Position numbers and translations under genes: made by a program
Shown: positions 54,219 through 64,000 of the stretch, in pieces
Layout: every line of letters starts with the position of its first letter
Position numbering within the stretch: position 1 is the first letter of the stretch
IMG/VR virus record: IMGVR_UViG_3300009177_000029
Location: 41,064 to 105,063 of that record
Source of the DNA: a virus
Lineage: Duplodnaviria > Heunggongvirae > Uroviricota > Caudoviricetes
Direction: 5' to 3' (one strand)
Length of the DNA stretch: 64,000 nt
The notes under the pieces: model-generated
What the model saw: the letters and a program-made list of their open reading frames with translations, nothing else
Told to the model about the DNA's origin: nothing
Database searches by the model: none

Positions 54219-54540
54219 GTCCCTGCTCCTTCAATGCGTTGTATACGCGTCTCTGTTCAATCACCCACACTCTATAGCGCTTCTCCGTGCAGGAACATGC
54301 TGGTACTACTTTTTCACCGGAAGGTGTAGTCAGAGTTCCTAGGATACCACGTCCGTGGCACTTGGTGCAACTTCGCTTTGCCCAATACCGCGAATCTTTT
54401 GACGGAATGACGGTTTGAAGCCATGCAATGAACTTTTGCCGGTCTTCCTCATACTTCTGCTGTACTTTGTCTGCCACTGCGGGTGGAAGGTGGCGGAACA
54501 TATTTACTACGGCAGTATCTACCTTCTCAGTGCTGTTCAT
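54196..54540 (-). CDS. Zinc-finger hypothetical protein
   Basis: CTKCHGRG...CSC. Confidence 0.6.
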   Translation of the reverse strand: MNSTEKVDTAVVNMFRHLPPAVADKVQQKYEEDRQKFIAWLQTVIPSKDSRYWAKRSCTKCHGRGILGTLTTPSGEKVVPACSCTEKRYRVWVIEQRRVYNALKEQGHETTTAD

Positions 54541-54542
54541 GG

Positions 54543-54785
54543 TTACCTTCTACGTTTCGGCGATGTCGTACGTCCAACAGTCAGAAGATTGCTCGCACGG
54601 ATCCGTCCATTTCGAAGCGCATTCTTACGCGCTTCGACCTCTGCCCTATGTTGAGCTTCCCAAGCCTGTCTCGATTCTGGACAGTCACATACAGGCATCA
54701 TGCCAACAGGCATGTCTCCGGTGAAGTCGATCGTAGGCTTGATGTCCTTCTCACAATAGGGACACTTGAATACGGGTGAAATCAT
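54543..54785 (-). CDS. Small zinc-binding hypothetical protein
   Basis: CPYC...CDC. Confidence 0.6.
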   Translation of the reverse strand: MISPVFKCPYCEKDIKPTIDFTGDMPVGMMPVCDCPESRQAWEAQHRAEVEARKNALRNGRIRASNLLTVGRTTSPKRRR

Positions 54786-55075
54786 TTGCGGTACGCAGTA
54801 TCCGGCTGATTCAAACGAGGCTTGTAATAGGTTGGCGTGACCAGTCTGATAGCCGTGCCTTGAATGACGCCGTTGGGAAACCTTAGCTCCAAGCGGTAGT
54901 CCTTACCTATCTCCATCCGGTCGCTAATCGATCTGATCGGCTCATTGTTGAGGAACACAAAACCAGCGCGAACATAGTTTCTACTCTCCCTCGGAGAGTT
55001 TGTCAAACCTGAGAGGTCGAGAACACGCCAAACCTCGGCATGGGTTGCTATACGACTAGGCCAGACCACATTCAT
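54782..55075 (-). CDS. Stand-alone S4 RNA-binding domain protein
   Basis: VWRVLDLSGLTNSPRESRNYVRAGFVFLNNEPI matches the S4 (TyrRS C-terminal-like) pattern. Confidence 0.7.
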   Translation of the reverse strand: MNVVWPSRIATHAEVWRVLDLSGLTNSPRESRNYVRAGFVFLNNEPIRSISDRMEIGKDYRLELRFPNGVIQGTAIRLVTPTYYKPRLNQPDTAYRK

Positions 55076-55082
55076 GGCGTAT

Positions 55083-55091
55083 AGTGTAGCA
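55083..55091 (-). promoter_or_regulatory. Extended -10 promoter, candidate leaderless start
   Basis: TG-C-TACACT, 7 nt upstream of ATG at 55075. Confidence 0.45.
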
Positions 55092-55092
55092 C

Positions 55093-55130
55093 AAAAGCAA
55101 AAGGCCCGTAGCCATTGGAGCTACGAGCCT
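55093..55130 (-). terminator. Intrinsic terminator ending tRNA operon
   Basis: GGCTCGTAGC/GCTACGGGCC stem followed by TTTTGCTTTT. Confidence 0.75.
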
Positions 55131-55142
55131 TCGTGTTGGTAG

Positions 55143-55215
55143 ATTCGGGCGCGAGGAATCGAACCTCGATTGGTGGGGTCAAAGTCCACTGTCCTGCCTT
55201 TAGACGAAACCCGAA
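55143..55215 (-). tRNA. tRNA-Gln(TTG)
   Basis: Cloverleaf; loop CT-TTG-AC. Confidence 0.88.
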
Positions 55216-55288
55216 GCTGGTAGGGAGAATCGAACTCCCTCTATTCCTCGTTACGAATGAGGTGCCGCACCATTTCGGCATTACCAGC
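55216..55288 (-). tRNA. tRNA-Thr(CGT)
   Basis: Cloverleaf; loop TT-CGT-AA. Confidence 0.85.
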
Positions 55289-55337
55289 ATGTGGGTTGGT
55301 GTTACCCAACCCGAGCGATTATGTTAGCACACTGCGG

Positions 55338-56918
55338 TCAGAGTGCAACCTGATTGATCTTGTCCGTCCAGAAAGTTGCCGATCCGGTGTTGGACGAGAA
55401 CTCGTTGATTACTTCGAACACGTTGTCCGAGAAACCACCAACATTCAACGTATCCTTGCGGGTCGTTGCCTGCGTCGTGTTCTCGACCTGAATGTCGATG
55501 CAAACCAACTTTGCCTTCGGGTTTCGTGTCTTGAACACATCCCACTCAGACTGTAGGTTTCCGCCGTAGCGTGCTCCCCAGGTGTAGTTGTGTGCCCAGG
55601 ACTCGTTATCCGAGACCATGATGATGAGATCACCTGCCGCCTTCTCACGGTTCAACAATGCAACCGGAGCTGCACAGTTCGTTCCGCCACCAGGCGCCTT
55701 CATGATCTTCTGCGCGTTGGTCATGATGGAGTCGAACGGATTCAACTTCTCACGCCATGCGTCCGTGTGGAACAAGATGACCTCTGCGTCAGGGTTCTTG
55801 CGAAGAACCGATGCTGCCACGAGGGCTGCAACATCCTTGCAAGTCGTCTTCGACGTTGCACCCGCACGGTGACCCGTAACAGGTGAACCCATCGAACCCG
55901 ACACGTCAATCATCACGTAGACCTTGCCTTCGTACTTTGGAACGTTCGCCGTAGCGTGCTCCATTGCCTCTTGCAAAGCGTTCGTGATCTTCGCAGGCAC
56001 CGCAGGGTCTGCGTTCAAGTACGCGGTAAGAAGCTGATAAGGGAAAGCGCGAGCCTTCAAGACCTCATCCTTCGAACCGAGACGATGTGCGATGGTGTTG
56101 ACCATCTTCTGGTTCTTGAGAACGCCGTGACGCTCAAACGTGTTGAGGTTCATGCGCGTCATCATCCAGCCCGCCTTCTCTGCGATGGACGACCACTGCT
56201 TCTCAGTGAGAGGCAAGGACGTCAACATGCGGAAATCAACGTCTGGAACTTCCAGAGAAGTGTTCTTCTTGAAGTTCTCGTACTGCTGGATCACACCAGG
56301 AAGAGCTGCGGACTGTGCATCCGTCAACTTCTTGCCGATGAGGTACGCGTACATAGCCTCACGAGACGCACCTTCTGGCGATGGGTGGACCATCTTGATC
56401 ACGTCACCCAACGAAGGCTTGTCGCCTACGGAGTCACGGAACAAAGAACCGTCCTTACGACCGTTCAACCATGCCTGAATCGCCTTCTTCGGCGCAGAGC
56501 CAAGTGACTTACGTCCAACTGCACCGGAGCGCATGATCTGGACGAAGTTACGAAGCATCTTGCCATTGTCGATGACGCGAGGGAACGTCTTCTTGAAGAG
56601 GTCAGCATCACGCGTCGAAAGAACTGCAAGAAGGAATGCAGGCATGTCCTTCATGAAACCCTTGTCACGAGCGTAGATTGCCGTCTTCGCCAAGAACTCA
56701 GGGGAAACCTTCTGCGCGAGCGCAAGAGTTTCCTTCATCTGACGTTCTGCCGTCGAATAGAACGTGTCGTTGAACGTACCAGTGCATGCATACTGAGCTA
56801 GCGCAGCCTCATCAGCCATTGCGTAAGCCGTACCGCCTGCCTTGTTTACCGCGTCTGGCTTACGAGAAGCCTTGCGAACTGCGGATACACCACCACGAAA
56901 TAGATTTGCGTTTGCCAT
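55338..56918 (-). CDS. rsr: Ro60/Rsr TROVE-domain RNA-binding protein
   Basis: AGGTAY..EAALAQYACTGTFNDTFY, MKDMPAFLLA, WMMTRMNLNTFERHG, ARAFPYQL, vWA MIDVSGSM and SDNESW. Confidence 0.95.
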   Translation of the reverse strand: MANANLFRGGVSAVRKASRKPDAVNKAGGTAYAMADEAALAQYACTGTFNDTFYSTAERQMKETLALAQKVSPEFLAKTAIYARDKGFMKDMPAFLLAVLSTRDADLFKKTFPRVIDNGKMLRNFVQIMRSGAVGRKSLGSAPKKAIQAWLNGRKDGSLFRDSVGDKPSLGDVIKMVHPSPEGASREAMYAYLIGKKLTDAQSAALPGVIQQYENFKKNTSLEVPDVDFRMLTSLPLTEKQWSSIAEKAGWMMTRMNLNTFERHGVLKNQKMVNTIAHRLGSKDEVLKARAFPYQLLTAYLNADPAVPAKITNALQEAMEHATANVPKYEGKVYVMIDVSGSMGSPVTGHRAGATSKTTCKDVAALVAASVLRKNPDAEVILFHTDAWREKLNPFDSIMTNAQKIMKAPGGGTNCAAPVALLNREKAAGDLIIMVSDNESWAHNYTWGARYGGNLQSEWDVFKTRNPKAKLVCIDIQVENTTQATTRKDTLNVGGFSDNVFEVINEFSSNTGSATFWTDKINQVAL

Positions 56919-56986
56919 AGAAACATTCTCCTTTCATCCCGTTGGAGACAACCCAGCACTATGCTGGTATAGCTATTCAGTTTTAA

Positions 56987-57057
56987 GCTGCGTTCCGGAA
57001 TCGAACCGGATTCTCCGCGTTACAAGGGCGGCGCGTCACCATTTACGCTTATGCAGC
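56987..57057 (-). tRNA. tRNA-Thr(TGT)
   Basis: Cloverleaf; loop CT-TGT-AA. Confidence 0.85.
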
Positions 57058-57059
57058 AT

Positions 57060-57128
57060 GTTTCCAACTTTCCCGCCGACTTAGTACGACAGCAAGCATC
57101 TCTGACTGCGCGGGTGGAGTTGGCAAAC
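57060..57128 (-). ncRNA. Unclassified bulged long-stem RNA
   Basis: GTTT(G)CCAACT-CCA-CCCGC pairs with GCGGG-AA-AGTTGG-AAAC. Confidence 0.45.
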
Positions 57129-57157
57129 GTCCACAATCAGATAACCTGCTGTGTGAA

Positions 57158-57228
57158 GGTGCAAGTGGGAATCGGACCCACCTGTAACAGTTTTGCAGAC
57201 TGCATCGATCCCAGATCGATATTGCACC
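57158..57228 (-). tRNA. tRNA-Cys(GCA)
   Basis: Cloverleaf; loop CT-GCA-AA. Confidence 0.85.
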
Positions 57229-57230
57229 AG

Positions 57231-57316
57231 ATCCCGAGGGTGGACTTAAACCACCGACCTTTAGGCCAAATGTGTGCACAACAGCCTAACGCTCTATTTC
57301 TCTGAGCTACTCGGAA
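57231..57316 (-). tRNA. tRNA-Asn-like with 19-nt anticodon loop
   Basis: Acceptor, D and T arms intact; TTAGG/CCTAA stem encloses CTGTTGTGCACACATTTGG. Confidence 0.6.
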
Positions 57317-57317
57317 A

Positions 57318-57387
57318 GCGGCTAGCGGGAGTCGAACCCGCGCGTCAAGGTTGGAAGCCTCGCATGCTACCGTAACATCTCAACCGC
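57318..57387 (-). tRNA. tRNA-Gly(TCC)
   Basis: Cloverleaf; loop CT-TCC-AA. Confidence 0.88.
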
Positions 57388-57392
57388 GTAGT

Positions 57393-57462
57393 GCGGGTAC
57401 AGGGAATCGAACCCTGTCCGAATGGCTGGCAACCACTCATACTACCATTATACTTTACCCGC
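57393..57462 (-). tRNA. tRNA-Gly(GCC)
   Basis: Cloverleaf; loop TT-GCC-AG. Confidence 0.88.
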
Positions 57463-57504
57463 ATTGATTTCCCGGTGGGTTTCCTCAGGAATGAGGACCG
57501 GGAA

Positions 57505-57576
57505 TGATCCATCGGAGAATCGAACTCCGGTTCGCAGATTGAAAGCCTGCCGTCCTAACCACTAGACGAATGGACC
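57505..57576 (-). tRNA. tRNA-Glu(TTC)
   Basis: Cloverleaf; loop CT-TTC-AA. Confidence 0.9.
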
Positions 57577-57582
57577 GTTTGA

Positions 57583-57654
57583 TGACCCTACGGGGATTTG
57601 AACCCCGATTCTCAACGTGAGAGGCTGGCGTCCTAGCCATTAGACGATAGGGCC
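57583..57654 (-). tRNA. tRNA-Glu(CTC)
   Basis: Cloverleaf; loop CT-CTC-AC. Confidence 0.85.
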
Positions 57655-57668
57655 GTCTTGATTTCACC

Positions 57669-57697
57669 AGTATGACCTCAGGTGCGGAGGTTGTCAA
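57669..57697 (-). promoter_or_regulatory. Sigma70-type promoter
   Basis: TTGACA-N17-CATACT, 15 nt upstream of tRNA-Glu. Confidence 0.65.
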
Positions 57698-57701
57698 GGA
57701 A

Positions 57702-57927
57702 CTTCTCTATAGCCGCGGTTTTGTCCAAAATCGACTGACAGGGCCGATTTCTGTTTGTACATTCCTCTAGTGGCATCAACCCGGGCGTCAACATCCTGCT
57801 TTCCGACTCTGCCCTGTTTGACTTGCTCCCTCCATGGTACGGACGGCTTTTGGCCTCCCATGTCTAGCAGTGGAGCCGCGAACTTCCTCACATCCCAACA
57901 AGTGGGTTAGTGCGTACAACCGAGAAG
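57702..57927 (-). ncRNA. rnpB: Minimal RNase P RNA (catalytic domain, vestigial S domain, no P18)
   Basis: GAGGAAGTTCGCGG pairs with ACAAAACCGCGGC (P4 with bulged U); P1, P2, P3, P5, P6 pseudoknot, P7, P15-17 with L15 GGU, P19; GAGCAAG and CTAGAGGAATG conserved runs. Confidence 0.85.
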
Positions 57928-57933
57928 AAACCA

Positions 57934-58021
57934 CGGAGAGCAGAGGAATCGCACCCCATACGCTTTTACACGTACCCTCTGTTTAGCAAACAGTGCCGAC
58001 TACTAAGTCGAGTTACTCTCC
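57934..58021 (-). tRNA. tRNA-Ser(GCT)
   Basis: Long variable arm; loop TT-GCT-AA. Confidence 0.82.
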
Positions 58022-58028
58022 AAGAACT

Positions 58029-58616
58029 TCACACTGTAGCAGACTTGGAAGCCTGTGCAAGTTCGATCTTGCGAAGTTCCTTTTGCAGCTTTCCTTGGAT
58101 TTGCTTGGCAAATCGCTTCGTCGTACGGGACACCTTGTCCAAGCGCTTGAGAGCAAGACGCTTCTGTAGGTTACCCATGCGATCGATGAAAAGCTTTCCT
58201 TGAAGATGGTCCAACTCGTGTTGGAATGCCACAGACGTGATTCCAGAGAGCCAACGCTCGGTCACCAGGCCGCCTTCGTCTTGGTAGGTGACACGGACCG
58301 ACTCAGCGCGCTTGAGGCGTTCCAGGACGCCAGGGAAGCTGAGACAGCCCTCATTGGAGTCCACCTGGTCCGTGTGGACTGCCAGAATCTGCGGATTGAT
58401 GCACGTGATGTATTCCTGAGATTTGAAGTCACGAATCACAAACATCGAGTACAATGCACCAATCTGGTTGGCAGCGAGACCCTCAGCGCGAAATGCCTTC
58501 GCCGTATCTCTCAAGTCTGCTGACAACTGCGCGATACCCTCGTCAAAGATTTCAACCGGGTCAGTCTGCTGCTTGAGAATAGGATTCGGATAGTGAAGGA
58601 TTTCTTTGATTGCCAT
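58029..58616 (-). CDS. def: Peptide deformylase
   Basis: GLAANQIG, EGCLS, HELDHL motifs. Confidence 0.95.
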   Translation of the reverse strand: MAIKEILHYPNPILKQQTDPVEIFDEGIAQLSADLRDTAKAFRAEGLAANQIGALYSMFVIRDFKSQEYITCINPQILAVHTDQVDSNEGCLSFPGVLERLKRAESVRVTYQDEGGLVTERWLSGITSVAFQHELDHLQGKLFIDRMGNLQKRLALKRLDKVSRTTKRFAKQIQGKLQKELRKIELAQASKSATV

Positions 58617-58628
58617 GTTGTCTCCTCA

Positions 58629-58712
58629 CGGAAAGCAGTGGAATCGAACCACCACGGGCGAACCGTGCACCTGTTTTCGAGGCAGGGCTGCTCCCAGAGC
58701 AGGTTACTTTCC
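58629..58712 (-). tRNA. tRNA-Ser(CGA)
   Basis: Long variable arm; loop CT-CGA-AA. Confidence 0.85.
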
Positions 58713-58716
58713 AATA

Positions 58717-58801
58717 CGGAGAGCAGTGTACTCGAAACACCTACCCTTGCGGGTATCCGACGCTTTCCAGGCGTGGGTGGCACCTAGCCACTCTACTCTC
58801 C
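58717..58801 (-). tRNA. tRNA-Ser(GGA)
   Basis: Long variable arm; loop CT-GGA-AA. Confidence 0.85.
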
Positions 58802-58900
58802 AAATGGTGACTCACCTTCCGGTGGCCTAGCGCGTCACCAACGCTTGAACTGGACTTTGCAGGATTTGATCACGCCGGCATGTGGCTTTGCCTATCCATT

Positions 58901-58982
58901 CGGAAGAAATAGGAGTCGAACCCGACCTGTTACGGCACCCTGTTTTCAAGACAGGTATGGCACCACTGCCATCTTTTCTTCC
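58901..58982 (-). tRNA. tRNA-Ser(TGA)
   Basis: Long variable arm; loop CT-TGA-AA. Confidence 0.85.
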
Positions 58983-58990
58983 AGGATGTA

Positions 58991-59224
58991 TTATGTAGCA
59001 GACTTCCTTTCGGCACGCAATCGCTTTGTTAGCTTGTAGCGGACAATAGTGCGTGCCAAATGGTCAATCTCAGCCTCAGTCAACTCATGGGAAACATGAG
59101 CGTATTCGCCAAGCATGATCATCTTGATCATGTTCCAGAAAGAGAACCGAGTATACACCTCGATAGATGGAGACTCAGGTTCCTTCCTGTCAATGTAGTG
59201 GTGGTGAAAGCTACTCGTTGTCAT
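58991..59224 (-). CDS. Small hypothetical protein
   Basis: Start trimmed to MTTSSFHHHY, overlapping HNH stop. Confidence 0.5.
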   Translation of the reverse strand: MTTSSFHHHYIDRKEPESPSIEVYTRFSFWNMIKMIMLGEYAHVSHELTEAEIDHLARTIVRYKLTKRLRAERKSAT

Positions 59225-59762
59225 TTTCCAACTCCTGGTTCCAGTAGAGGTAGTCCCTCCAACAGTCAGGAGTGTTTGGAAGGGCAATGATGAGCTTCTG
59301 ACGTGGAGTCCAGTCAGGCTTTACCGGCTTCGAACGCAACACCATCCTTGCCTCAGCCGGAGTTCTGTCTGCCTTCTTACCGTTACACCTGATACAGCAT
59401 GTAGCGATGTTGTCCCAGACAGTCTTTCCGCCCTTGGAACGAGGAATCACGTGGTCATAGGTGAGGTTCTGTGTACCTGGCTTGTCACCACAGTATTGAC
59501 ACGTGTACTTGTCACGTGCAAATACGTTGATGCGTGAGAACTTCACACGATGCTTCTTGCCGTTGACGTACTCAAACAAGCGCACGACAGCGGGACACTT
59601 CATGGTGAGTGACATTGAAGTTAGCTCGAAGTCTTCATATTCCTTCAAGACCTCAACCTTGTCTTCGAACCAGAGGATGACTGCACGCTGCCACGAGATC
59701 ACGCGAAGTGGCTCGTAAGTAGAGTTCAACAGCAAAGTTCTGCGCTCTATGATGCTAGTCAT
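59211..59762 (-). CDS. HNH endonuclease
   Basis: TLLLNSTYEPL, PAVVRL, FSRINVFARDKYTCQYCG, TYDHVIPRSKGG, CCIRCNGKK; start MTSIIERR. Confidence 0.92.
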   Translation of the reverse strand: MTSIIERRTLLLNSTYEPLRVISWQRAVILWFEDKVEVLKEYEDFELTSMSLTMKCPAVVRLFEYVNGKKHRVKFSRINVFARDKYTCQYCGDKPGTQNLTYDHVIPRSKGGKTVWDNIATCCIRCNGKKADRTPAEARMVLRSKPVKPDWTPRQKLIIALPNTPDCWRDYLYWNQELENDNE

Positions 59763-59776
59763 TGGTTCCTCCTCAA

Positions 59777-59860
59777 TGGACCTGGTGGGAGTTGAACCCA
59801 CACGGTATCGCTACCACAACGTTTTAAGTGTCGTCTGTCTGCCTATTCCATCACAAGTCC
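59777..59860 (-). tRNA. tRNA-Leu(TAA)
   Basis: Long variable arm; loop CT-TAA-AA. Confidence 0.85.
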
Positions 59861-59863
59861 TCA

Positions 59864-59952
59864 TGGTGCGTACAGGAATCGAACCCATCTTCCGGTGTTT
59901 ATCAGACGTATCGGTTATAAACCGACCTGTGGCAACCAGCCACCTACGCACC
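59864..59952 (-). tRNA. tRNA-Ile(TAT) with long variable region
   Basis: GTCGG-TT-TAT-AA-CCGAT followed by ~21-nt variable region. Confidence 0.72.
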
Positions 59953-60144
59953 TCAATGTCTATTCAGACCACGCCACACCCAATATGCGATGTGATCCAA
60001 CACTTTTGGGTCAAGTTCGTAATCTTTGCAGTAGTTTAGCACTTCTTCGTCTTCTATCCACTCAAGCATAGACTTCCCGCCGTAGTGTGCCATGTACGCC
60101 CACTCAACTAACTTAGCCCTAGCCCTTGCTTGAGAAGTTTCCAC
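59953..60144 (-). CDS. Small hypothetical protein
   Basis: 63-aa ORF overlapping Pth2-like stop. Confidence 0.45.
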   Translation of the reverse strand: METSQARARAKLVEWAYMAHYGGKSMLEWIEDEEVLNYCKDYELDPKVLDHIAYWVWRGLNRH

Positions 60145-60554
60145 ACTGCCCCTACTCGGTGCTGCCCCGAGCTTCGCGGGTTTAGAAGCCGCTGGCCCTG
60201 CTGATGGCCCATAGAGGCTCGAAGTTCTTTCATCGCTAGCGGCAGATGACGTACCGCTTCCATTGCTTGATCTGTAGCCTCTATTGCGAGGGCTGTCAAG
60301 CTCATACCCATATCCGGCTCGCGGAACAGGGAATGTGCAATGCCGAGAGAGAACAGCTTTCCACTCAGTTCGTTGAGTTCTTTCTCGTCTGCAACAGACA
60401 GGAAACCCAACGTGTTGGATTCAGCATGCCACTCTCGGGCTTGATCTGGATTTTCGAACTTGAACTCAACCAAAGCATGCATGCCTTGCACTGCCTGCGC
60501 ACCCGGAGACAAATCTCGACGAGTTACGACATACAGCTTTTGATTAGTCCGCAT
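60108..60554 (-). CDS. Peptidyl-tRNA hydrolase 2-like protein
   Basis: KLYVVTRRDLSPGAQAVQGMHA...FREPDMG..LTALA. Confidence 0.75.
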   Translation of the reverse strand: MRTNQKLYVVTRRDLSPGAQAVQGMHALVEFKFENPDQAREWHAESNTLGFLSVADEKELNELSGKLFSLGIAHSLFREPDMGMSLTALAIEATDQAMEAVRHLPLAMKELRASMGHQQGQRLLNPRSSGQHRVGAVWKLLKQGLGLS

Positions 60555-60596
60555 GGTAGAAACCTACGCGCCACCAGTTTTTGTCTTTTCCATACA

Positions 60597-60679
60597 TGCC
60601 CACGGCGAGAGTCGAACTCGCACGCCTGTCAAGGCAACGGTTTTTGAGACCGTCATGTCTGCCATTCCATCACACGGGC
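60597..60679 (-). tRNA. tRNA-Leu(CAA)
   Basis: Loop CT-CAA-AA; long variable arm. Confidence 0.9.
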
Positions 60680-60722
60680 GTCACCTGGTAACCAGGTTAT
60701 CTTAGTCGCTTCGAACTAGGAG

Positions 60723-60794
60723 TGCCAATAGGAGGACTCGAACCTCACGAGCAGAGCCTTATGAGAGCCCGCTAAGCAACCTGCTTGTATTGAC
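60723..60794 (-). tRNA. tRNA-Met/Ile2(CAT), atypical D arm
   Basis: Loop CT-CAT-AA; normal T arm. Confidence 0.65.
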
Positions 60795-60796
60795 AT

Positions 60797-60870
60797 TGGG
60801 AGCGGCCCCGGAAGTCGCGTCCGGTTGTGAGAGCTTATGAGACTCCCCTGTCATCTCCAACTGCACCGCT
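60797..60870 (-). tRNA. tRNA-Met(CAT), atypical T loop
   Basis: Loop CT-CAT-AA; T loop CGCGACT; encoded CCA. Confidence 0.65.
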
Positions 60871-60871
60871 A

Positions 60872-60951
60872 TGGGCACGGGGAGAGTCGAACTCCCACGC
60901 TATTCGCGCCAGATTCTTAGTCTGGTGTGTCTGCCATTCCACCACGCGCCC
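60872..60951 (-). tRNA. tRNA-Leu(AAG)
   Basis: CCAGA-CT-AAG-AA-TCTGG; Leu-type D loop and variable arm. Confidence 0.85.
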
Positions 60952-60955
60952 GTTA

Positions 60956-61037
60956 TGCCGAAGAAAGGAGTCGAACCTTCATGTACGAAGTACGGCGGCT
61001 TCTAAGACCGCTGTGTCTGCCATTCCACCACTCCGGC
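60956..61037 (-). tRNA. tRNA-Leu(TAG)
   Basis: Loop CT-TAG-AA; long variable arm. Confidence 0.9.
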
Positions 61038-61043
61038 ATTGTA

Positions 61044-61117
61044 TGCACCACCAGGGTATCGCGCCCTGCATTTGACGGTGTGTAAAACCGTTCTCGTCGC
61101 TTGCTGAGTCGTAGTGC
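61044..61117 (-). tRNA. tRNA-Val(TAC), atypical T loop
   Basis: ACGGT-TT-TAC-AC-ACCGT; T loop CGCGATA. Confidence 0.75.
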
Positions 61118-61141
61118 GTTGAGAATAGGATCTTTGATTAG

Positions 61142-61214
61142 CCTCTTCGGTGAGATTTGAACTCACACCACCCGCCTTAGGAGTGCGGTACACTATCCGT
61201 TATGCTACGAAGAG
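61142..61214 (-). tRNA. tRNA-Arg(CCT)
   Basis: Loop CT-CCT-AA. Confidence 0.88.
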
Positions 61215-61218
61215 ATTA

Positions 61219-61291
61219 CGCTCCTACTAGGATTCGAACCCAGATCGCAGCGCTTAGAAGGCGCGCACACTATCCATTGTGCTATAGAAGC
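61219..61291 (-). tRNA. tRNA-Arg(TCT)
   Basis: Loop CT-TCT-AA. Confidence 0.88.
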
Positions 61292-61296
61292 AGTCA

Positions 61297-61368
61297 CGTA
61301 CCCGGCAGGAATCGAACCCGCATTCGGACGTTCGTAGCGTCAGAGTCTATCCGTTGACGTACAGGTAC
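61297..61368 (-). tRNA. tRNA-Arg(ACG)
   Basis: Loop CT-ACG-AA. Confidence 0.88.
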
Positions 61369-61374
61369 ATTGGT

Positions 61375-61436
61375 GGTGACGAAAGTGATCGTGAAGGTTT
61401 GATCTTGAAATGATGTATTCACGGTCGGCATTCACC
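61375..61436 (-). ncRNA. Handle-family RNA copy A (candidate Y-like RNA)
   Basis: GGTGA-ATGCC-GACCGTGAA-TACATC...TTCACGATC-ACTTTCG-TCACC, followed by ACCA. Confidence 0.7.
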
Positions 61437-61438
61437 GA

Positions 61439-61510
61439 AGCTGGTACAGGAACTTGCATCCTGATCACATCCATACCAAGGAAGTGTGTCTCTATTTACA
61501 CCTTACCAGC
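61439..61510 (-). tRNA. tRNA-Thr(GGT)
   Basis: Loop TT-GGT-AT; T loop TGCAAGT. Confidence 0.82.
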
Positions 61511-61513
61511 GAT

Positions 61514-61596
61514 TGGTCAGTCGGACGGGATTTCCACCCGTAAACTCTATGTTCTAGGCATAGTGTCTTTGCCATTGCCAGTCTCGCGACCGACTA
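61514..61596 (-). tRNA. Atypical tRNA-like gene (TAG loop, C33, enlarged D region)
   Basis: Acceptor TAGTCGG/CCGACTG + A + CCA; CTATG-CCTAGAA-CATAG; T loop TGGAAAT. Confidence 0.5.
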
Positions 61597-61614
61597 ACTT
61601 AGACTACCGGCTGA

Positions 61615-61685
61615 TGGACCGCTAGGGAGTCGAACCCTATCTTTCACGGTGCAAGCGTAACGTATTCCCGTCCTACTCGCGGCCC
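61615..61685 (-). tRNA. tRNA-Ala(TGC)
   Basis: Loop CT-TGC-AC; G3-U70. Confidence 0.88.
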
Positions 61686-61691
61686 ATTGTT

Positions 61692-61719
61692 ATGGTAACA
61701 CACCGTAGTGCGTTGTCAA
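61692..61719 (-). promoter_or_regulatory. Sigma70-type promoter
   Basis: TTGACA-N16(TGn)-TACCAT. Confidence 0.6.
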
Positions 61720-61720
61720 G

Positions 61721-61792
61721 CACGCTAGGAAGGATTCGAACCCTCTTGACGCCGGTTTTGGAGGCCAGCCGCTCTCCCAGGAGCACTAACGT
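61721..61792 (-). tRNA. tRNA-Trp(CCA)
   Basis: Loop CT-CCA-AA. Confidence 0.85.
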
Positions 61793-61793
61793 A

Positions 61794-61894
61794 TGGTCTT
61801 GAGTTTCTACTCCCTCAGAGCCTCCCACCCTCCCTCCTCCGTGTTTTCACACGGGATCAAGTCGGGCAGTCCGAGTATCCCATAGAACCTCAAG
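61794..61894 (-). ncRNA. Unclassified 101-nt RNA with terminal stem, 3' ACCA and G-tracts
   Basis: CTTGAG-G-TTCTA pairs with TAGAA-A-CTCAAG, then ACCA; CCGTGT-GAAA-ACACGG hairpin; GGGAGGGTGGG-N9-GGG. Confidence 0.5.
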
Positions 61895-61957
61895 TTTGAA
61901 GATGATCATGAGCATCTTCGACTCGCATCTGCACGGGTTGGTTACCGTGTACAAGAT

Positions 61958-62061
61958 TGGTGGAGCGTGCCGGATTCTAACCAGCTCTCTACCTTGCCCA
62001 TTGAAGGGCCAGGTTGGGACTTCGCCATACTTAGTATGTGCTTACATTACACCAACGCCCC
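61958..62061 (-). tRNA. tRNA-Ala-like RNA with ~23-nt insertion and expanded anticodon arm
   Basis: GGGGCGT/ACGCTCC-A-CCA (G3-U70); D arm GTGT/GCAC; T arm GCTGG-TTAGAAT-CCGGC. Confidence 0.6.
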
Positions 62062-62073
62062 GAAAACATGTGA

Positions 62074-62148
62074 GGGTGACTAGGGGGAATCGAACCCACC
62101 ACCGCCGGATTCACAGACCGGCATGCGGACCTCTACACTATAGTCACC
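62074..62148 (-). tRNA. tRNA-His(GTG)
   Basis: Loop CT-GTG-AA; 8-bp acceptor. Confidence 0.88.
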
Positions 62149-62154
62149 ATGAAG

Positions 62155-62227
62155 CGCGCCCAAGGAGGATCGAACTCCCCTGGCCTTGATTGACAATCAA
62201 GTGTACTCACCAGAATACTATGAGCGC
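62155..62227 (-). tRNA. tRNA-Asp(GTC)
   Basis: CTTGA-TT-GTC-AA-TCAAG. Confidence 0.88.
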
Positions 62228-62271
62228 ATTGTCCAGAGGCTCTCCGCAGGTTTCCCTGCGTGAGTCTGGTA

Positions 62272-62343
62272 TGGAGCTAGAAAGAGTCGAACTTTCGTAA
62301 CATCGTTATCAGCGATGTGTACTAACCGTTATACGATAGCTCC
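62272..62343 (-). tRNA. tRNA-Ile(GAT)
   Basis: CATCG-CT-GAT-AA-CGATG. Confidence 0.9.
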
Positions 62344-62356
62344 GTTAGAAATCTGA

Positions 62357-62429
62357 TGCCGCCGACTGGACTCGAACCAGCATTTGTGTCCGGTTAAAAG
62401 CCGGGTGCCAACCTTTAGGCGACGACGAC
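62357..62429 (-). tRNA. tRNA-Lys(TTT)
   Basis: Loop CT-TTT-AA. Confidence 0.85.
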
Positions 62430-62434
62430 AGAAA

Positions 62435-62506
62435 TCGGAGTAGGGTGAATCGAACACCCGACATCACCGCCCCAAACGGTGCGACATACCACTTGCCTAT
62501 ACTCCG
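62435..62506 (-). tRNA. tRNA-Pro(TGG)
   Basis: CACCG-TT-TGG-GG-CGGTG. Confidence 0.9.
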
Positions 62507-62507
62507 A

Positions 62508-62582
62508 TGGCAGATTCCCGTGGTCATACTCCACGATCTTTCCCCGTTGTCAGGGATGCTCTGAAACTTGAGCTAGGAACCT
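62508..62582 (-). tRNA. Degenerate tRNA-Val(GAC)-like gene
   Basis: Acceptor, D and T stems pair; anticodon arm misregistered; T loop AGTATGA; encoded CCA. Confidence 0.5.
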
Positions 62583-62588
62583 ATTAGT

Positions 62589-62719
62589 TAGTGACGAGAG
62601 TGACCGAGTTGTTTAGCCTAGCACTGGCAGCCCCGTTTGTTTAGAACTGATGGAGCTTACGGGAGTTGCACCCGCGTCGGATCATATTCAGTGATGTAAA
62701 CCCAATCGAGCATTCACTA
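62589..62719 (-). ncRNA. Handle-family RNA copy B with circularly permuted alanyl-tRNA/tmRNA-like domain (YrlA-like architecture)
   Basis: TAGTGA-ATGCTC-GATTGGGTT-TACATC...GAC-GCGGG-TGCAACT-CCCGT-AAGCTCC-[17-nt loop]-GGGGCTG-D-like hairpin...AACTCGGTC-ACTCTCG-TCACTA. Confidence 0.75.
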
Positions 62720-62802
62720 TGGTTGAGGAAGGAATCGAACCTACTGTTCCCGAAGGAGGCGGTTTTACAGACCGCTGCGCCGACCATTGACGCGTCTCAA
62801 CC
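62720..62802 (-). tRNA. tRNA-Tyr(GTA)
   Basis: GCGGT-CT-GTA-AA-ACCGC; long variable arm. Confidence 0.9.
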
Positions 62803-62807
62803 AGATA

Positions 62808-62895
62808 TCAGGGCGACAGGACTCGAACCTGCACGGCGATCTTGTGTTACTCGTCTCCAAAACGAGAGGGCTACCATCTACCCACCTACACCCTG
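62808..62895 (-). tRNA. tRNA-Pro(TGG) with expanded variable region
   Basis: CTCGT-TT-TGG-AG-ACGAG followed by ~17-nt variable region. Confidence 0.68.
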
Positions 62896-62898
62896 GTA

Positions 62899-62974
62899 TG
62901 CAGCTTCTTGGAGTCGAACCAAGTTCTACGGCTTTTCAGACCGTCGCGTATGTAACCCTACTCGCTCAAGCTGC
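62899..62974 (-). tRNA. tRNA-Phe(GAA)
   Basis: Loop CT-GAA-AA. Confidence 0.85.
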
Positions 62975-62981
62975 GTTTGTA

Positions 62982-63054
62982 CGATGGATGTAGGACTTGC
63001 ACCTACCTCGGGTAAGTTAACAGCTTACTGCTCAACTTCCTGAGCTAATCCACC
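62982..63054 (-). tRNA. tRNA-Asn(GTT)
   Basis: GTAAG-CT-GTT-AA-CTTAC. Confidence 0.85.
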
Positions 63055-63062
63055 ATAGATAG

Positions 63063-63137
63063 CTGGGGCAGAGGGAATCGAACCCCCGCACATACGGTTA
63101 ACAGCCGTACTGTCTTTCCAACGCGACATACACCCCA
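63063..63137 (-). tRNA. tRNA-Asn(GTT)
   Basis: TACGG-CT-GTT-AA-CCGTA. Confidence 0.85.
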
Positions 63138-63202
63138 ATGAGGTACGCCGAAGCGTACCGAAATCAATGACCCTATTCAGTTTTCAAATGGTCTTTCGAC
63201 CT

Positions 63203-63275
63203 ACTCCGACGCAAGGAATCGAACCTCGATTAACGGTTTCAGAGACCGCTGTCCTGCCTTTAGACGAAATCGGAA
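63203..63275 (-). tRNA. tRNA-Gln(CTG)
   Basis: Loop CT-CTG-AA. Confidence 0.88.
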
Positions 63276-63278
63276 TGT

Positions 63279-63360
63279 ATGTGACGAAAAATGTAGAGAG
63301 GTAGTGCGGGCTTGCGGCCCGCGTATCTAAACGCGATGTACTCCCCACGAGCATTCACAT
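63279..63360 (-). ncRNA. Handle-family RNA copy C (candidate Y-like RNA)
   Basis: ATGTGA-ATGCTC-GTGGGGAG-TACATC-[two hairpins]-CTCTCTAC-ATTTTTCG-TCACAT. Confidence 0.7.
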
Positions 63361-63406
63361 TGGTATCTCATTGTTTAGCGTTGTCGTGAGAATCGCGACA
63401 CTTTTA

Positions 63407-63479
63407 TGGAAGCGGAGGGAGTCGAACCCATCTATGTTTCGGTTAAGAGCCGAGTGCCTGGCCGGTTAGCTTCGCTTCC
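63407..63479 (-). tRNA. tRNA-Lys(CTT)
   Basis: Loop CT-CTT-AA. Confidence 0.88.
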
Positions 63480-63490
63480 GTTGAGTCTCT

Positions 63491-63519
63491 ATCGTGCTGT
63501 GCGTTCTGTCTGTTGTCAA
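63491..63519 (-). promoter_or_regulatory. Sigma70-type promoter
   Basis: TTGACA-N17-CACGAT, just upstream of tRNA-Lys. Confidence 0.45.
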
Positions 63520-63520
63520 G

Positions 63521-63684
63521 TCACTTTCTGCGTTGGGTCTCTCGAACGATTAAGGGCACCGAAGTTTCCTTGGTGCCCTTGTGAATCGATAGAGAATGCG
63601 TCTAGTTATCGATTACACGTCGGCACCTACCCAAATCTGGGCATAGTCGAACTTCGGGTGAATGCGATTAACTAGAGTGAGCAT
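63521..63684 (-). ncRNA. Unclassified ~165-nt twin-hairpin RNA
   Basis: CTAGTT/AACTAG-closed long stem and AAGGGCACC/GGTGCCCTT GAAA hairpin, between two promoters, no ORF. Confidence 0.45.
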
Positions 63685-63690
63685 CTCTTT

Positions 63691-63718
63691 ATCCTAGCAG
63701 GGCTTCGAACGATGTCAA
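63691..63718 (-). promoter_or_regulatory. Sigma70-type promoter
   Basis: TTGACA-N16(TGn)-TAGGAT. Confidence 0.65.
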
Positions 63719-63782
63719 CCGGAAAGTGAAGGTGCTAGCAGTTTTGCGGCTACTAGCACCCGGTATGAGCATCACAGCGCAC

Positions 63783-63810
63783 ATCCTATCACTTCCGAGC
63801 GGGCTGTCAA
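63783..63810 (-). promoter_or_regulatory. Sigma70-type promoter
   Basis: TTGACA-N16(TGn)-TAGGAT. Confidence 0.65.
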
Positions 63811-64000
63811 GTGAGATCGGAGGTCAGAGGAACAACTTGCTGCATCTTCACACGCGTGTTCTCGATCCTCTTCGCCACACGATCGAAACCCTTGGCGATA
63901 ACCACAGGCACATCCGATTCCTTCTCCATACGCTTCGACACGACACGCATCATGTCTGGTACACGAGCAAAGACCGGCTCACAGAGGAAGAGCACAGCAG
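63807..64000 (-). CDS. 3' end of a hypothetical protein (5'-truncated)
   Basis: Open frame from window edge to TGA at 63807. Confidence 0.55.
   Translation of the reverse strand, partial: AVLFLCEPVFARVPDMMRVVSKRMEKESDVPVVIAKGFDRVAKRIENTRVKMQQVVPLTSDLT

What the first reader, a model, noticed from the sequence alone, without database searches (positions are those of the whole stretch)
62589..62719. Circularly permuted alanyl-tRNA/tmRNA-like domain inside handle RNA B, a predicted substrate for the phage RNase P
Seen: order is GAC, T arm (GCGGG-TGCAACT-CCCGT), 3' acceptor strand AAGCTCC-A, 17-nt closing loop, 5' acceptor strand GGGGCTG (62634-62628, G3-U70), then a D-like hairpin GCC-AGTGCTA-GGC. 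The handle stem takes the anticodon position. Established: YrlA RNAs have this permuted layout with a closed acceptor; GAC, GGGGCUG and G3-U70 are tmRNA tRNA-like-domain hallmarks. Inference: RNase P cleavage at G1 plus 3' trimming and CCA addition would give a two-piece Ala-chargeable RNA with no tag ORF, possibly an SmpB/EF-Tu decoy or ribosome-rescue modulator tethered to Ro60.
Basis: partly seen in the sequence, partly recalled or inferred. Interest (0 to 1): 0.82.

Follow-up and report, generated by a model that had tools for sequence, protein, structure and literature searches.

The report
Phage Y RNA with alanine-tRNA-like arm
This is a small RNA partner (a YrlA-type Y RNA) of the phage's Ro60 protein, carrying a rearranged tRNA look-alike whose tip bears the marks of alanine tRNA and tmRNA. 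The kind is already known, and whether the tip is ever cut open and loaded with alanine is untested.

Summary
The described sequence is there, at the stated coordinates on the minus strand. From 5' to 3': a terminal handle, a 9-bp stem, a V hairpin, a T arm, the acceptor 3' strand plus A73, a 16-nt loop, the acceptor 5' strand GGGGCUG (G3-U70) and a small D-like hairpin.

A covariance model built only from RNAs found beside Ro60 genes in 65 other bacterial and phage loci finds it at 40.5 bits (E 2e-9). The same model finds the two other "handle RNAs" of the window. It is therefore a Y RNA of the YrlA lineage for the phage Ro60 (55338-56918).

- **Alanine marks are not unique to this RNA.** G1-C72, G2-C71, G3-U70, A73 and C75-A76 recur in 8 distinct acceptor stems of bacterial YrlA-like RNAs in 18 loci. 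These RNAs are also its nearest relatives.
- **The tmRNA likeness is real but partial.** 3 of 35 core bases differ from E. coli tmRNA, but the likeness is limited to the T-arm/acceptor minihelix. There is no tag frame, no pseudoknots and no model hit above threshold.
- **Departures from YrlA.** The D arm is reduced, and Rfam's YrlA model misses the RNA.
- **Processing is only plausible.** RNase P opening, CCA addition and alanylation have a precedent in M. smegmatis YrlA but are untested here.

This scan had already noted alanine marks on YrlA RNAs in other genomes.

The parts
62589..62719 (-). Y RNA 'B' as a whole: YrlA-lineage RNA of 131 nt. It starts directly after A73 of tRNA-Tyr (62720).
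   Evidence: Model R1 hit at 62584-62724, 40.5 bits, E 2.4e-9; MFE fold; sequence.
62708..62719 (-). 5' handle: terminal-stem strand UAGUGA plus internal loop AUGCUC. This is the counterpart of the published Ro60-contact motif GNCGAAN0-1G, read here as GUGAAUG.
   Evidence: The family consensus has CGAAUGC nearly invariant. In the R1 alignment, a C-G pair of the model is a U-A pair here.
62589..62601 (-). 3' handle: ACUCUCG plus UCACUA. It matches the family's 3' consensus UGUCGUCAC with one change.
62699..62707 (-). 5' strand of the 9-bp stem that stands in the anticodon-stem position. It pairs with 62602-62610.
   Evidence: MFE fold. The corresponding family helix has compensatory changes at all 8 pairs.
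62602..62610 (-). 3' strand of the 9-bp stem.
62676..62698 (-). Variable region. It begins with UUAC AUC (the family's YUAC AU signature), holds a small hairpin AUCA/UGAU and ends in CCGAC.
   Evidence: YUAY is described in PMC4201824
62659..62675 (-). T arm GCGGG-UGCAACU-CCCGU.
   Evidence: An identical T arm (with the stem ending in C) occurs in Acidobacteriota YrlA-like RNAs L084, L103 and L125.
62651..62658 (-). Acceptor 3' strand AAGCUCC (positions 66-72) and discriminator A73 (62651). UCA follows.
62635..62650 (-). 16-nt loop closing the acceptor. It begins UCAG, as do the 7-nt loops of bacterial alanine-type relatives.
62628..62634 (-). Acceptor 5' strand GGGGCUG: G1-C72, G2-C71, G3-U70, G4-C69, C5-G68, U6-A67, and G7 opposite A66 (no pair).
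62616..62628 (-). Reduced D-like hairpin GCC-AGUGCUA-GGC. It abuts the acceptor with no linker, and its loop lacks GG.
   Evidence: MFE fold. R1 left it unaligned. T loops with G at the second place go with D loops lacking GG in the family (13 of 17, against 10 of 96).
63274..63365 (-). Y RNA 'A': the same handle, no tRNA-like module (YrlB-like). tRNA-Gln follows.
   Evidence: R1 37.7 bits, E 1.3e-8
61369..61442 (-). Y RNA 'C': the same handle, no tRNA-like module. It lies between two tRNA genes.
   Evidence: R1 31.2 bits, E 5.8e-7; tRNAs
55338..56918 (-). Phage Ro60 (TROVE plus Ro60 vWA domain), the presumed protein partner. It lies 5.7 kb downstream on the same strand.
   Evidence: Pfam PF25045 E 7.9e-18 and PF05731 E 9.3e-8
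62511..62583 (-). Cloverleaf-shaped tRNA-like RNA directly 3' of B, with a 4-nt 'anticodon' loop and an encoded GCCA end. It may serve as the processing signal that sets B's 3' end.
   Evidence: MFE fold z -3.16, 0 of 200 shuffles as stable. Not called by ARAGORN or by Rfam tRNA.

Best explanation
The element is a Y RNA of the YrlA lineage, one of three in this phage's tRNA island. It most likely works with the phage-encoded Ro60.

**Shown**
- Its handle, its 9-bp stem, the YUAC start of the V region, its T arm and its closed acceptor are homologous, in the same order, to RNAs encoded beside Ro60 genes in many bacteria and phages.
- Its T-arm/acceptor minihelix carries the complete acceptor-helix identity set of tRNA-Ala, followed by U74-C75-A76. 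This set is shared with a subclass of bacterial YrlA-like RNAs, which are its nearest relatives.

**Inferred**
- It is transcribed within the tRNA precursor.
- Its 5' end is made by the 3' processing of tRNA-Tyr, which abuts it.
- Its 3' end is made by RNase P acting on the tRNA-like cloverleaf that follows it.
- The handle docks on the Ro60 ring.
- The minihelix presents a tRNA-Ala-like top half to a tRNA-handling factor.

The D arm has shrunk while the minihelix is intact. The minihelix is the part read by RNase P, the CCA-adding enzyme, AlaRS and EF-Tu, so I think the minihelix, not the whole L shape, is what matters here.

Whether the 16-nt loop is opened is undecided. I put opening at about 35%.
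For: **Membership in the Ro60-linked family**
- Model R1 was built from 65 Ro60-linked RNAs with the window left out. In 10 kb of the window it gives three full-length hits: B at 40.5 bits, A at 37.7 and C at 31.2. Everything else is tRNA-level noise.
- The family structure is backed by covariation: 97.7% of cells are paired, against 39-49% when partners are slid, and 28 of 31 pairs show compensatory changes. The T and acceptor helices were pre-selected by my scanner; the two handle helices were not.
- Ro60 is in the same island on the same strand.
- Phage relatives with Ro60 at 46-51% identity carry canonical YrlA with the same handle words (L003, L004). These score 44 bits with Rfam YrlA.

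**Alanine-type subclass**
- The six best whole-length matches of B among 113 modules are all alanine-type.
- The full alanine set occurs in 8 distinct acceptor stems in 18 loci of four phyla. Positions 4-7 covary while positions 1-3 and 73 stay fixed.
- C75-A76 follows in 18 of 22 alanine-type modules, against 13 of 92 others.

**Processing capacity**
- The phage encodes a CCA-adding-type nucleotidyltransferase (PF01743, E 2.6e-41), and its tRNAs lack encoded CCA.
- tRNA-Tyr ends at 62720 and B begins at 62719.
- Precedent: M. smegmatis YrlA is bound by Rsr, cut by RNase P and CCA-tailed (PMC4201824).
Against: - Rfam's own YrlA model (RF02553) gives no hit on B even at E<=10.
- The D arm, nearly invariant in YrlA, is replaced by a 3-bp hairpin with no U8/N9 linker, so a tRNA-like L shape is doubtful.
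- The published Ro60-contact motif is not matched exactly.
- B lies 5.7 kb from Ro60, beyond the 4 kb typical in PMC4201824.
- No orthologue of B was found in viral, metagenome or genome collections, so nothing shows that B's own minihelix is under selection.
- In the cultured relative Mx1, the corresponding RNA has only a 5-bp hairpin without alanine marks.
- At family level, G-U is as common at 4:69 as at 3:70 (13 against 11 of 75 stems), and close relatives have A3-U70.
- Folding energy is not better than shuffles.
Confidence: 0.72

Rival explanations
1. RNase P (phage or host) cuts 5' of G62634, the 5' piece is trimmed to A62651 and gets CCA, and AlaRS charges it. The result is a two-piece alanyl-RNA held on Ro60 that engages EF-Tu, SmpB or the ribosome.
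For: - All acceptor-helix determinants of tRNA-Ala are present.
- The loop is the longest among the alanine-type relatives, tied with L105. Most phage relatives close the acceptor with 2-8 nt loops.
- A pyrimidine precedes G1.
- A73-N-C-A is enriched in the alanine-type subclass.
- The minihelix is kept while the D arm has decayed.
- The phage has its own CCA-adding-type enzyme.
- M. smegmatis YrlA is cleaved and CCA-tailed, and its authors raise possible aminoacylation.
Against: - Only 6 acceptor pairs plus a G/A mismatch. S. Typhimurium YrlA, with 6 pairs, is not cleaved.
- No processing, charging or binding data exist.
- The phage RNase P RNA is not confirmed by Rfam at E<=1.
- The SmpB-side features of tmRNA (the D-loop words) are absent.
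- The alanine set is not universal among relatives.
Confidence: 0.18
2. A decaying YrlA. The tRNA-like module is a relic on its way to loss, B works only through its handle as A and C do, and the alanine and tmRNA likeness is inherited history without present function.
For: - The D arm is truncated, there is no linker, and G7/A66 is a mismatch.
- A and C, and the nearest Ro60 relatives (54% identity), have only short handle RNAs.
- The counterpart in Mx1 is further reduced.
- R1 scores B barely above the handle-only RNAs.
Against: - The T arm and six acceptor pairs are intact with no disruptive change.
- The full alanine set plus C75-A76 is retained.
- Decay would be expected to strike the G-U pair early.
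Confidence: 0.2
3. A miniature two-piece (permuted) tmRNA, or a chimera whose minihelix was copied from a tmRNA gene.
For: - The core GAC + T arm + acceptor differs at 3 of 35 bases from E. coli tmRNA and at 2 of 28 from metagenomic tmRNA 3' ends. That is closer than the nearest YrlA-like RNA (5 of 35) or tRNA-Ala (10 of 35).
- There is a weak match to Rfam tmRNA_permuted: 18 bits, E 0.058 on 231 nt.
- The same 23-nt word retrieves mostly tmRNA ends.
Against: - The score is far under the 47-bit cut-off, and the standard tmRNA model gives 7.8 bits.
- ARAGORN calls no tmRNA, and none exists anywhere in the phage.
- There is no room for pseudoknots.
- The only frame after the acceptor (9 codons from GCU) lies in the conserved handle 3' strand and lacks a tag-like end.
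- The flanks are homologous to Y RNA handles.
- The tmRNAs of Myxococcota, Verrucomicrobiota and Acidobacteriota genomes that I checked have other acceptors.
Confidence: 0.04
4. Chance, or a remnant of two adjacent tRNA genes (T arm of one, 5' half of the next).
For: - Dimeric tRNAs do mimic this layout. One such false positive turned up in L022, and Rfam YrlA's best hit in this phage is a tRNA pair.
Against: - The upstream and downstream parts match the Y RNA handle and not tRNA halves.
- The scanner expects 0.13 chance sites per window.
- Neither ARAGORN nor Rfam calls a tRNA here.
Confidence: 0.03

Closest known systems
Mycobacterium smegmatis YrlA (Chen et al. 2014, PMC4201824)
   Same: A Ro60-bound Y RNA with a circularly permuted tRNA-like module. 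Its acceptor can be opened by RNase P and CCA-tailed, giving two pieces, and it is processed from a longer precursor together with a shorter YrlB.
   Different: B has 6 acceptor pairs plus a mismatch (7 in M. smegmatis) and a reduced D arm. It sits inside a phage tRNA array 5.7 kb from Ro60. I could not retrieve the M. smegmatis sequence to compare acceptors.
Salmonella Typhimurium YrlA (Rfam RF02553; structure 6CU1, bioRxiv 10.1101/312249)
   Same: The same order of modules: handle, anticodon-like stem, V, T arm, closed acceptor, D arm. The acceptor has 6 bp.
   Different: B is not detected by RF02553. It lacks the canonical D arm and the two-base linker, its T loop reads UGCAACU, and it carries the alanine identity set.
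Alanine-type YrlA-like RNAs beside Ro60 in Acidobacteriota, Verrucomicrobiota, Planctomycetota and Myxococcota
   Same: They are the nearest relatives of B, at about 78-81% identity over aligned columns. They share G1-C72, G2-C71, G3-U70, A73 and C75-A76. L084, L103 and L125 share B's T arm, and L105 has the same GGGGCUG strand and a 17-nt loop.
   Different: They keep the canonical D arm UAGCUCA...GAGC, which is nearly identical to their host's tRNA-Ala D arm. Most have 7- or 11-nt loops and a fully paired 7-bp acceptor.
tmRNA tRNA-like domain, including two-piece (permuted) tmRNA (Rfam RF00023, RF04321)
   Same: Near-identical T arm, acceptor and preceding GAC. The gene order of two-piece tmRNA is permuted in the same way, and the alanine identity is shared.
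   Different: No tag frame, no pseudoknots, no tmRNA D-loop words and no encoded CCA. Scores are far below the cut-offs.
Mycobacteriophage YrlA (phage ET08, Fig. 1D of PMC4201824)
   Same: A phage-encoded Y RNA next to a phage Ro60, with T stem GCGGG/CCCGU.
   Different: ET08 has acceptor CACCUG/CAGGUG, which is not alanine-type, and a canonical D arm. It lies directly upstream of Ro60. Its Ro60 is only about 22% identical to this one.

Membership tests
YrlA-type Y RNA (Chen et al. 2014; Rfam RF02553) | Encoded near a Ro60/Rsr gene on the same strand (typically within 4 kb) | tested here: met
   Same strand and same tRNA/Ro60 island, but 5.7 kb upstream of Ro60. Relative L003 has its YrlA 6 kb upstream as well.
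YrlA-type Y RNA (Chen et al. 2014; Rfam RF02553) | GNCGAAN0-1G motif near the 5' end (likely Ro60 contact) | tested here: inconclusive
   B reads AGUGAAUG. The C is a U, with a compensating A on the 3' strand in the R1 alignment. The adjoining GAAUGC is invariant in the family.
YrlA-type Y RNA (Chen et al. 2014; Rfam RF02553) | Conserved T stem-loop | tested here: met
   GCGGG-UGCAACU-CCCGU. The loop variant with G at the second place is seen in 17 of 113 family modules.
YrlA-type Y RNA (Chen et al. 2014; Rfam RF02553) | [quoted passage not shown] | tested here: met
   6 pairs plus G/A, closed by 16 nt plus A73.
YrlA-type Y RNA (Chen et al. 2014; Rfam RF02553) | Nearly invariant D stem-loop (UAGCUCA..GAGC) after a two-base linker | tested here: not met
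   Only a 3-bp hairpin GCC/GGC with a 7-nt loop and no linker. R1 skips it.
YrlA-type Y RNA (Chen et al. 2014; Rfam RF02553) | V region beginning with YUAY | tested here: met
   UUAC AUC, against family CUAC AUC or UUAC AUC.
YrlA-type Y RNA (Chen et al. 2014; Rfam RF02553) | Score at or above the Rfam gathering cut-off (69 bits) | tested here: not met
   No hit on B at E<=10. The published phage member ET08 (37.4 bits) and the canonical relatives (about 44 bits) also fall below the cut-off.
YrlA-type Y RNA (Chen et al. 2014; Rfam RF02553) | Match to a model of Ro60-linked homologues built without this window | tested here: met
   R1: 40.5 bits, E 2.4e-9, full model length.
YrlA-type Y RNA (Chen et al. 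2014; Rfam RF02553) | Bound by Ro60/Rsr | not testable with these tools
   Needs co-immunoprecipitation or a gel-shift assay.
tmRNA, one- or two-piece (RF00023, RF04321) | tRNA-Ala-like acceptor with G3-U70 and a T arm | tested here: met
   3 of 35 core bases differ from E. coli tmRNA.
tmRNA, one- or two-piece (RF00023, RF04321) | Tag reading frame with resume codon and proteolysis-tag end | tested here: not met
   The only frame is 9 codons inside the conserved handle strand, with no tag-like C-terminus. ARAGORN finds none.
tmRNA, one- or two-piece (RF00023, RF04321) | Pseudoknots and P2 helix; model score at or above 47 bits | tested here: not met
   18 bits (RF04321) and 7.8 bits (RF00023). 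The RNA is 131 nt long, and its flanks are a Y RNA handle.
tRNA-Ala | Acceptor identity set G3-U70, A73, G2-C71 | tested here: met
   The same GGGGCUG strand occurs in a bacterial tRNA-Ala(UGC).
tRNA-Ala | Anticodon arm, normal 5'-to-3' order, free ends | tested here: not met
   The order is permuted and the anticodon arm is replaced by the handle. There is no tRNA call.
RNase P substrate | 7-bp acceptor stacked on a 5-bp T stem, 5' leader, 3' RCCA | tested here: inconclusive
   6 pairs plus G/A, then a 5-bp T stem. The 3' side reads A-U-C-A, and C stands at -1. Cleavage itself is not testable here.

The most novel reading that the evidence does not exclude
In this phage the Y RNA's acceptor loop is opened by RNase P and rebuilt by the phage's own CCA-adding enzyme, and the minihelix is alanylated. 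Ro60 would then carry a charged, tmRNA-like alanyl minihelix with no message. Such an RNA could draw EF-Tu, AlaRS or stalled ribosomes to the Ro60 RNA-decay machine, or compete with tmRNA. The same would hold for the alanine-type YrlA subclass of soil bacteria.
Probability: 0.15. Interest if true: 0.8.

Novelty: new variant of a known kind. Interest (0 to 1): 0.42.

Why it matters
Y RNAs tether Ro60 to other factors, but the role of the tRNA-like module of bacterial YrlA RNAs is still unknown. One RNA keeps only the top half of tRNA-Ala (the part read by RNase P, the CCA-adding enzyme, AlaRS and EF-Tu). Together with a bacterial subclass that conserves the alanine identity set and an NCA tail, it makes one question directly testable: are some Y RNAs opened and aminoacylated? 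I found no paper that reports the alanine-type subclass. The 2014 authors only raise aminoacylation as a possibility. If the module is merely a relic, the finding is an ordinary phage Ro60/Y RNA set.

Tried and rejected
- **Exact and degenerate word searches for orthologues of B.** The 23-nt word found nothing in viral contigs. The degenerate word found 35 viral and 109 metagenome stretches. Nearly all of these were tmRNA 3' ends, tmRNA-end fragments or tRNA-Lys genes, and none was a B-like RNA.
- **blastn of the core against E. coli genomes.** No match, because no 11-base word is shared. The E. coli gene was fetched by coordinates instead.
- **Retrieving M. smegmatis YrlA from primer sequences in the paper.** Either no match or only chance matches. 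No supplementary files are held for the paper.
- **Thermodynamic support.** z-scores of -1.27 and -0.54 are uninformative.
- **A B-like loop in L022.** It turned out to be two adjacent tRNA genes.
- **Copy of a host tmRNA.** The tmRNAs of four Myxococcota genomes and four other Ro60-bearing genomes have different acceptors and T loops.
- **Copy of the phage's own tRNA-Ala.** Its acceptor is GGGCCGC.
- **Phage tmRNA elsewhere in the genome.** None was found.
- **RNase P RNA at 57702-57927.** No Rfam match at E<=1.
Full report
**Context.** The window is part of a complete 169-kb uncultivated soil phage. All genes near the finding run on the minus strand. The region holds more than 30 tRNA genes, peptide deformylase, a Pth2-like protein and an HNH nuclease. 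It also holds a 526-aa Ro60 protein at 55338-56918 (Ro60 vWA domain E 7.9e-18, TROVE E 9.3e-8). The closest cultured relative by Ro60 is Myxococcus phage Mx1 (47.7% identity, 169.6 kb), which has a similar tRNA/Ro60 island.

**The observation.** Read on the minus strand from 62719, the 131-nt stretch is laid out as follows:
- terminal-stem strand UAGUGA;
- loop AUGCUC;
- a 9-bp stem strand;
- UUACAUC and a small V hairpin;
- CCGAC;
- T arm GCGGG-UGCAACU-CCCGU;
- acceptor 3' strand AAGCUCC;
- A73;
- 16 loop bases;
- GGGGCUG;
- hairpin GCC-AGUGCUA-GGC;
- the return strands of both stems.

The minimum-free-energy fold reproduces this layout. Two details need correcting:
- The last G of GGGGCUG is also the first base of the D-like hairpin. 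The acceptor therefore has six pairs plus a G/A mismatch, and no U8/N9 linker exists.
- The folding energy is no better than that of shuffled sequence (z -0.54).

A purpose-written scan for a T arm followed by a closed acceptor finds 0.13 sites per shuffled window.

**What it is.** Rfam gives only a weak match to permuted tmRNA (18 bits; cut-off 47) and nothing for YrlA. I therefore collected Ro60 loci: 35 viral and 80 bacterial.
- My scanner found 113 distinct permuted tRNA-like modules beside these Ro60 genes, outside ARAGORN-called tRNAs.
- An alignment of 65 of them shows a common architecture. A stem holds the published GNCGAAUG word and is followed by an invariant GAAUGC. Then come an 8-bp stem, CUACAU, a V hairpin, GAGGUC, the T arm, a closed 7-8 bp acceptor, UA, a canonical D arm and the return strands ending UGUCGUCAC.
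- Of the 31 pairs, 28 show compensatory changes. Pairing is 97.7%, against 39-49% when partners are slid. The T and acceptor helices were pre-selected by the scanner; the handle helices were not.
- A covariance model from this alignment, with the window excluded, gives three full-length hits in 54000-64000. These are B at 62584-62724 (40.5 bits, E 2.4e-9), A at 63274-63365 (37.7 bits) and C at 61369-61442 (31.2 bits).
- A and C have the handle only, like YrlB. B keeps the T arm and acceptor, and its D region is left unaligned.
- In all three window RNAs, the C-G pair inside the Ro60-contact word is a U-A pair.

Rfam's YrlA model is narrow: the published phage member ET08 scores 37.4 bits and the canonical relatives L003 and L004 score about 44 bits, all under the 69-bit cut-off.

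**The alanine marks.**
- B has G1-C72, G2-C71, G3-U70, G4-C69 and A73, followed by U-C-A.
- The same set (positions 1-3 and 73) occurs in 8 distinct acceptor stems in 18 loci of Verrucomicrobiota, Acidobacteriota, Planctomycetota and Myxococcota. Positions 4-7 covary.
- A73 goes with G3-U70: 9 of 13 distinct combinations, against 16 of 68 others (Fisher p 0.002, not corrected for relatedness).
- C75-A76 follows in 18 of 22 alanine-type modules, against 13 of 92 others.
- The six best whole-length matches of B are all alanine-type.
- L084, L103 and L125 have B's T arm, and L105 has GGGGCUG with a 17-nt loop.
- In one Verrucomicrobial genome, the YrlA acceptor 3' strand, A73 and D arm are almost identical to that genome's tRNA-Ala(CGC). 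Another genome's tRNA-Ala(UGC) has the acceptor GGGGCUG/CAGCUCC-A.

These modules are therefore permuted tRNA-Ala mimics, and B inherited the trait. Three cautions apply:
- G-U is as frequent at 4:69 as at 3:70.
- Six related stems have A3-U70.
- I found no orthologue of B itself.

**The tmRNA likeness.** With tool-derived sequences, B's 35-base core (GAC, T arm, acceptor 3' strand, A73, acceptor 5' strand) compares as follows:
- 3 bases differ from E. coli tmRNA;
- 2 of 28 bases differ from metagenomic tmRNA 3' ends that share the UGCAACU loop;
- 5 bases differ from the nearest YrlA-like RNA;
- 10 bases differ from tRNA-Ala.

The resemblance is real. Everything else speaks against tmRNA:
- The flanks are a Y RNA handle.
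- No pseudoknots fit into the length.
- The only frame lies in the conserved handle strand.
- ARAGORN and both Rfam tmRNA models fail.
- The phage has no tmRNA.
- The tmRNAs of eight Ro60-bearing genomes have other acceptors.

A recombinational origin of the minihelix from a tmRNA gene cannot be excluded, but it is not needed.

**The elbow.** In the family, T loops starting UG go with D loops lacking GG (13 of 17). Those starting UU go with GG (86 of 96; Fisher p 5e-8). B fits the first type, with T loop UGCAACU and D-like loop AGUGCUA. However, its D stem has 3 pairs and abuts the acceptor, so an L shape is doubtful.

**How it likely works.** Established knowledge from PMC4201824 and bioRxiv 10.1101/312249:
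- Y RNAs bind Ro60 through the stem formed by their ends.
- YrlA modules mimic tRNA.
- M. smegmatis YrlA is cleaved by RNase P and CCA-tailed in vivo, whereas S. Typhimurium YrlA, with a 6-bp acceptor, is not.

Inference for B:
- B is released from the tRNA precursor. tRNA-Tyr's A73 is at 62720 and B starts at 62719.
- Downstream, at 62511-62583, lies a very stable cloverleaf (z -3.16) that could direct RNase P to set B's 3' end.
- A and C are likewise hemmed in by tRNA genes.
- The phage encodes a CCA-adding-type enzyme, and its tRNAs lack encoded CCA.
- The minihelix is what RNase P, the CCA-adding enzyme, AlaRS and EF-Tu read. It is intact while the D arm is reduced, and its loop is long where most phage relatives have tight loops, some of them GAAA tetraloops.
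I put opening at about 35% and a charged two-piece RNA at about 15-18%.
- The rival view, that the module is a relic, is about as likely as the charging model.

**Comparison and novelty.**
- The kind (Ro60 with YrlA/YrlB, also in phages) is known. Possible aminoacylation was raised in 2014.
- I found no paper that describes an alanine-type subclass.
- Earlier notes of this scan had already seen alanine marks on YrlA RNAs in other genomes. I reached the same result independently on my own loci before reading them.
- B is a new variant of that kind. It is phage-borne, embedded in a tRNA array, has a reduced D arm and a long acceptor loop, and has a minihelix as close to tmRNA as to any YrlA.

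**Limits.** I found no orthologue of B and could not retrieve the M. smegmatis sequence. I also could not confirm the phage RNase P RNA (CR-I-like and CR-IV-like words are visible).

Noticed in passing
window 62511-62583 (-): A very stable cloverleaf (z -3.16; 0 of 200 shuffles as stable) lies between Y RNA B and tRNA-Pro. It has a 7-8 bp acceptor with G3-U70, U8-A9, a GCUC/GAGC D arm, a 6-bp 'anticodon' stem with only a 4-nt loop, T loop AGUAUGA and an encoded GCCA end. Neither ARAGORN nor Rfam calls it a tRNA. It may be an anticodon-less tRNA-like RNA or a processing signal.
   Followed up: partly
window 63274-63365 (-) and 61369-61442 (-): Two short Y RNAs (handle only, YrlB-like) are each hemmed in by tRNA genes. 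Together with B, this suggests that tRNA processing punctuates Y RNA maturation in this phage.
   Followed up: partly
window 57934-58022 (-): A tRNA-Sec model match at 46.8 bits (cut-off 47). It has a long extra arm and an anticodon loop reading UUGCUAA. ARAGORN does not call it. It is probably an unusual tRNA-Ser(GCU)-like gene.
   Followed up: no
window 61439-61510 (-): A tRNA seen by Rfam at 42.7 bits in the permissive search but not listed by ARAGORN.
   Followed up: no
By eye it has CR-I-like (GAGGAAGUUCGCGGC) and CR-IV-like (ACAGAAAUCGGCC) words.
   Followed up: partly
G000:C1:3873-4238 (outside the window): The phage encodes a CCA-adding/poly(A) polymerase family nucleotidyltransferase (PF01743, E 2.6e-41, 416-aa frame). 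This fits its CCA-less tRNA genes.
   Followed up: no
Loci L051, L052, L065, L077, L081, L082, L086, L111, L123, L084, L103, L106, L114, L122, L125, L128, L105, L127: Bacterial YrlA-like RNAs beside Ro60 carry the full tRNA-Ala acceptor set plus an A-N-C-A loop start. Often two or three paralogues with different acceptors stand in tandem. In one genome the acceptor 3' strand and the D arm nearly equal the host's tRNA-Ala(CGC).
   Followed up: partly
Alignment A2 and the scanner set (113 modules): T loops reading UGCRA co-occur with D loops lacking GG (AGYAGUA), and UUCRA loops co-occur with GG (Fisher p 5e-8). The same variant elbow occurs in real phage tRNAs (L022 tRNA-Phe) and in some tmRNAs.
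   Followed up: partly
L326 (Myxococcus phage Mx1) 2251-2384 and 2603-2714: The cultured phage Mx1 has unannotated Y RNAs in its tRNA array. One is a YrlA-like RNA (R1 61 bits; Rfam YrlA 32 bits). The other is reduced, with a T arm and a 5-bp hairpin. Mx1 would be an experimental stand-in for this uncultivated phage.
   Followed up: partly
L022 10635-11049: A related phage contig with Ro60 also encodes a tmRNA with an unusually long predicted tag (30 residues).
   Followed up: no
window 63810-63783, 63718-63691, 61719-61692 (-): Three promoter-like sites TTGACA-16 nt-TAGGAT/TACCAT, each with an upstream TG, lie on the strand of the tRNA/Y RNA array. In total 5 sites were found, against 1.9 expected.
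   Followed up: no
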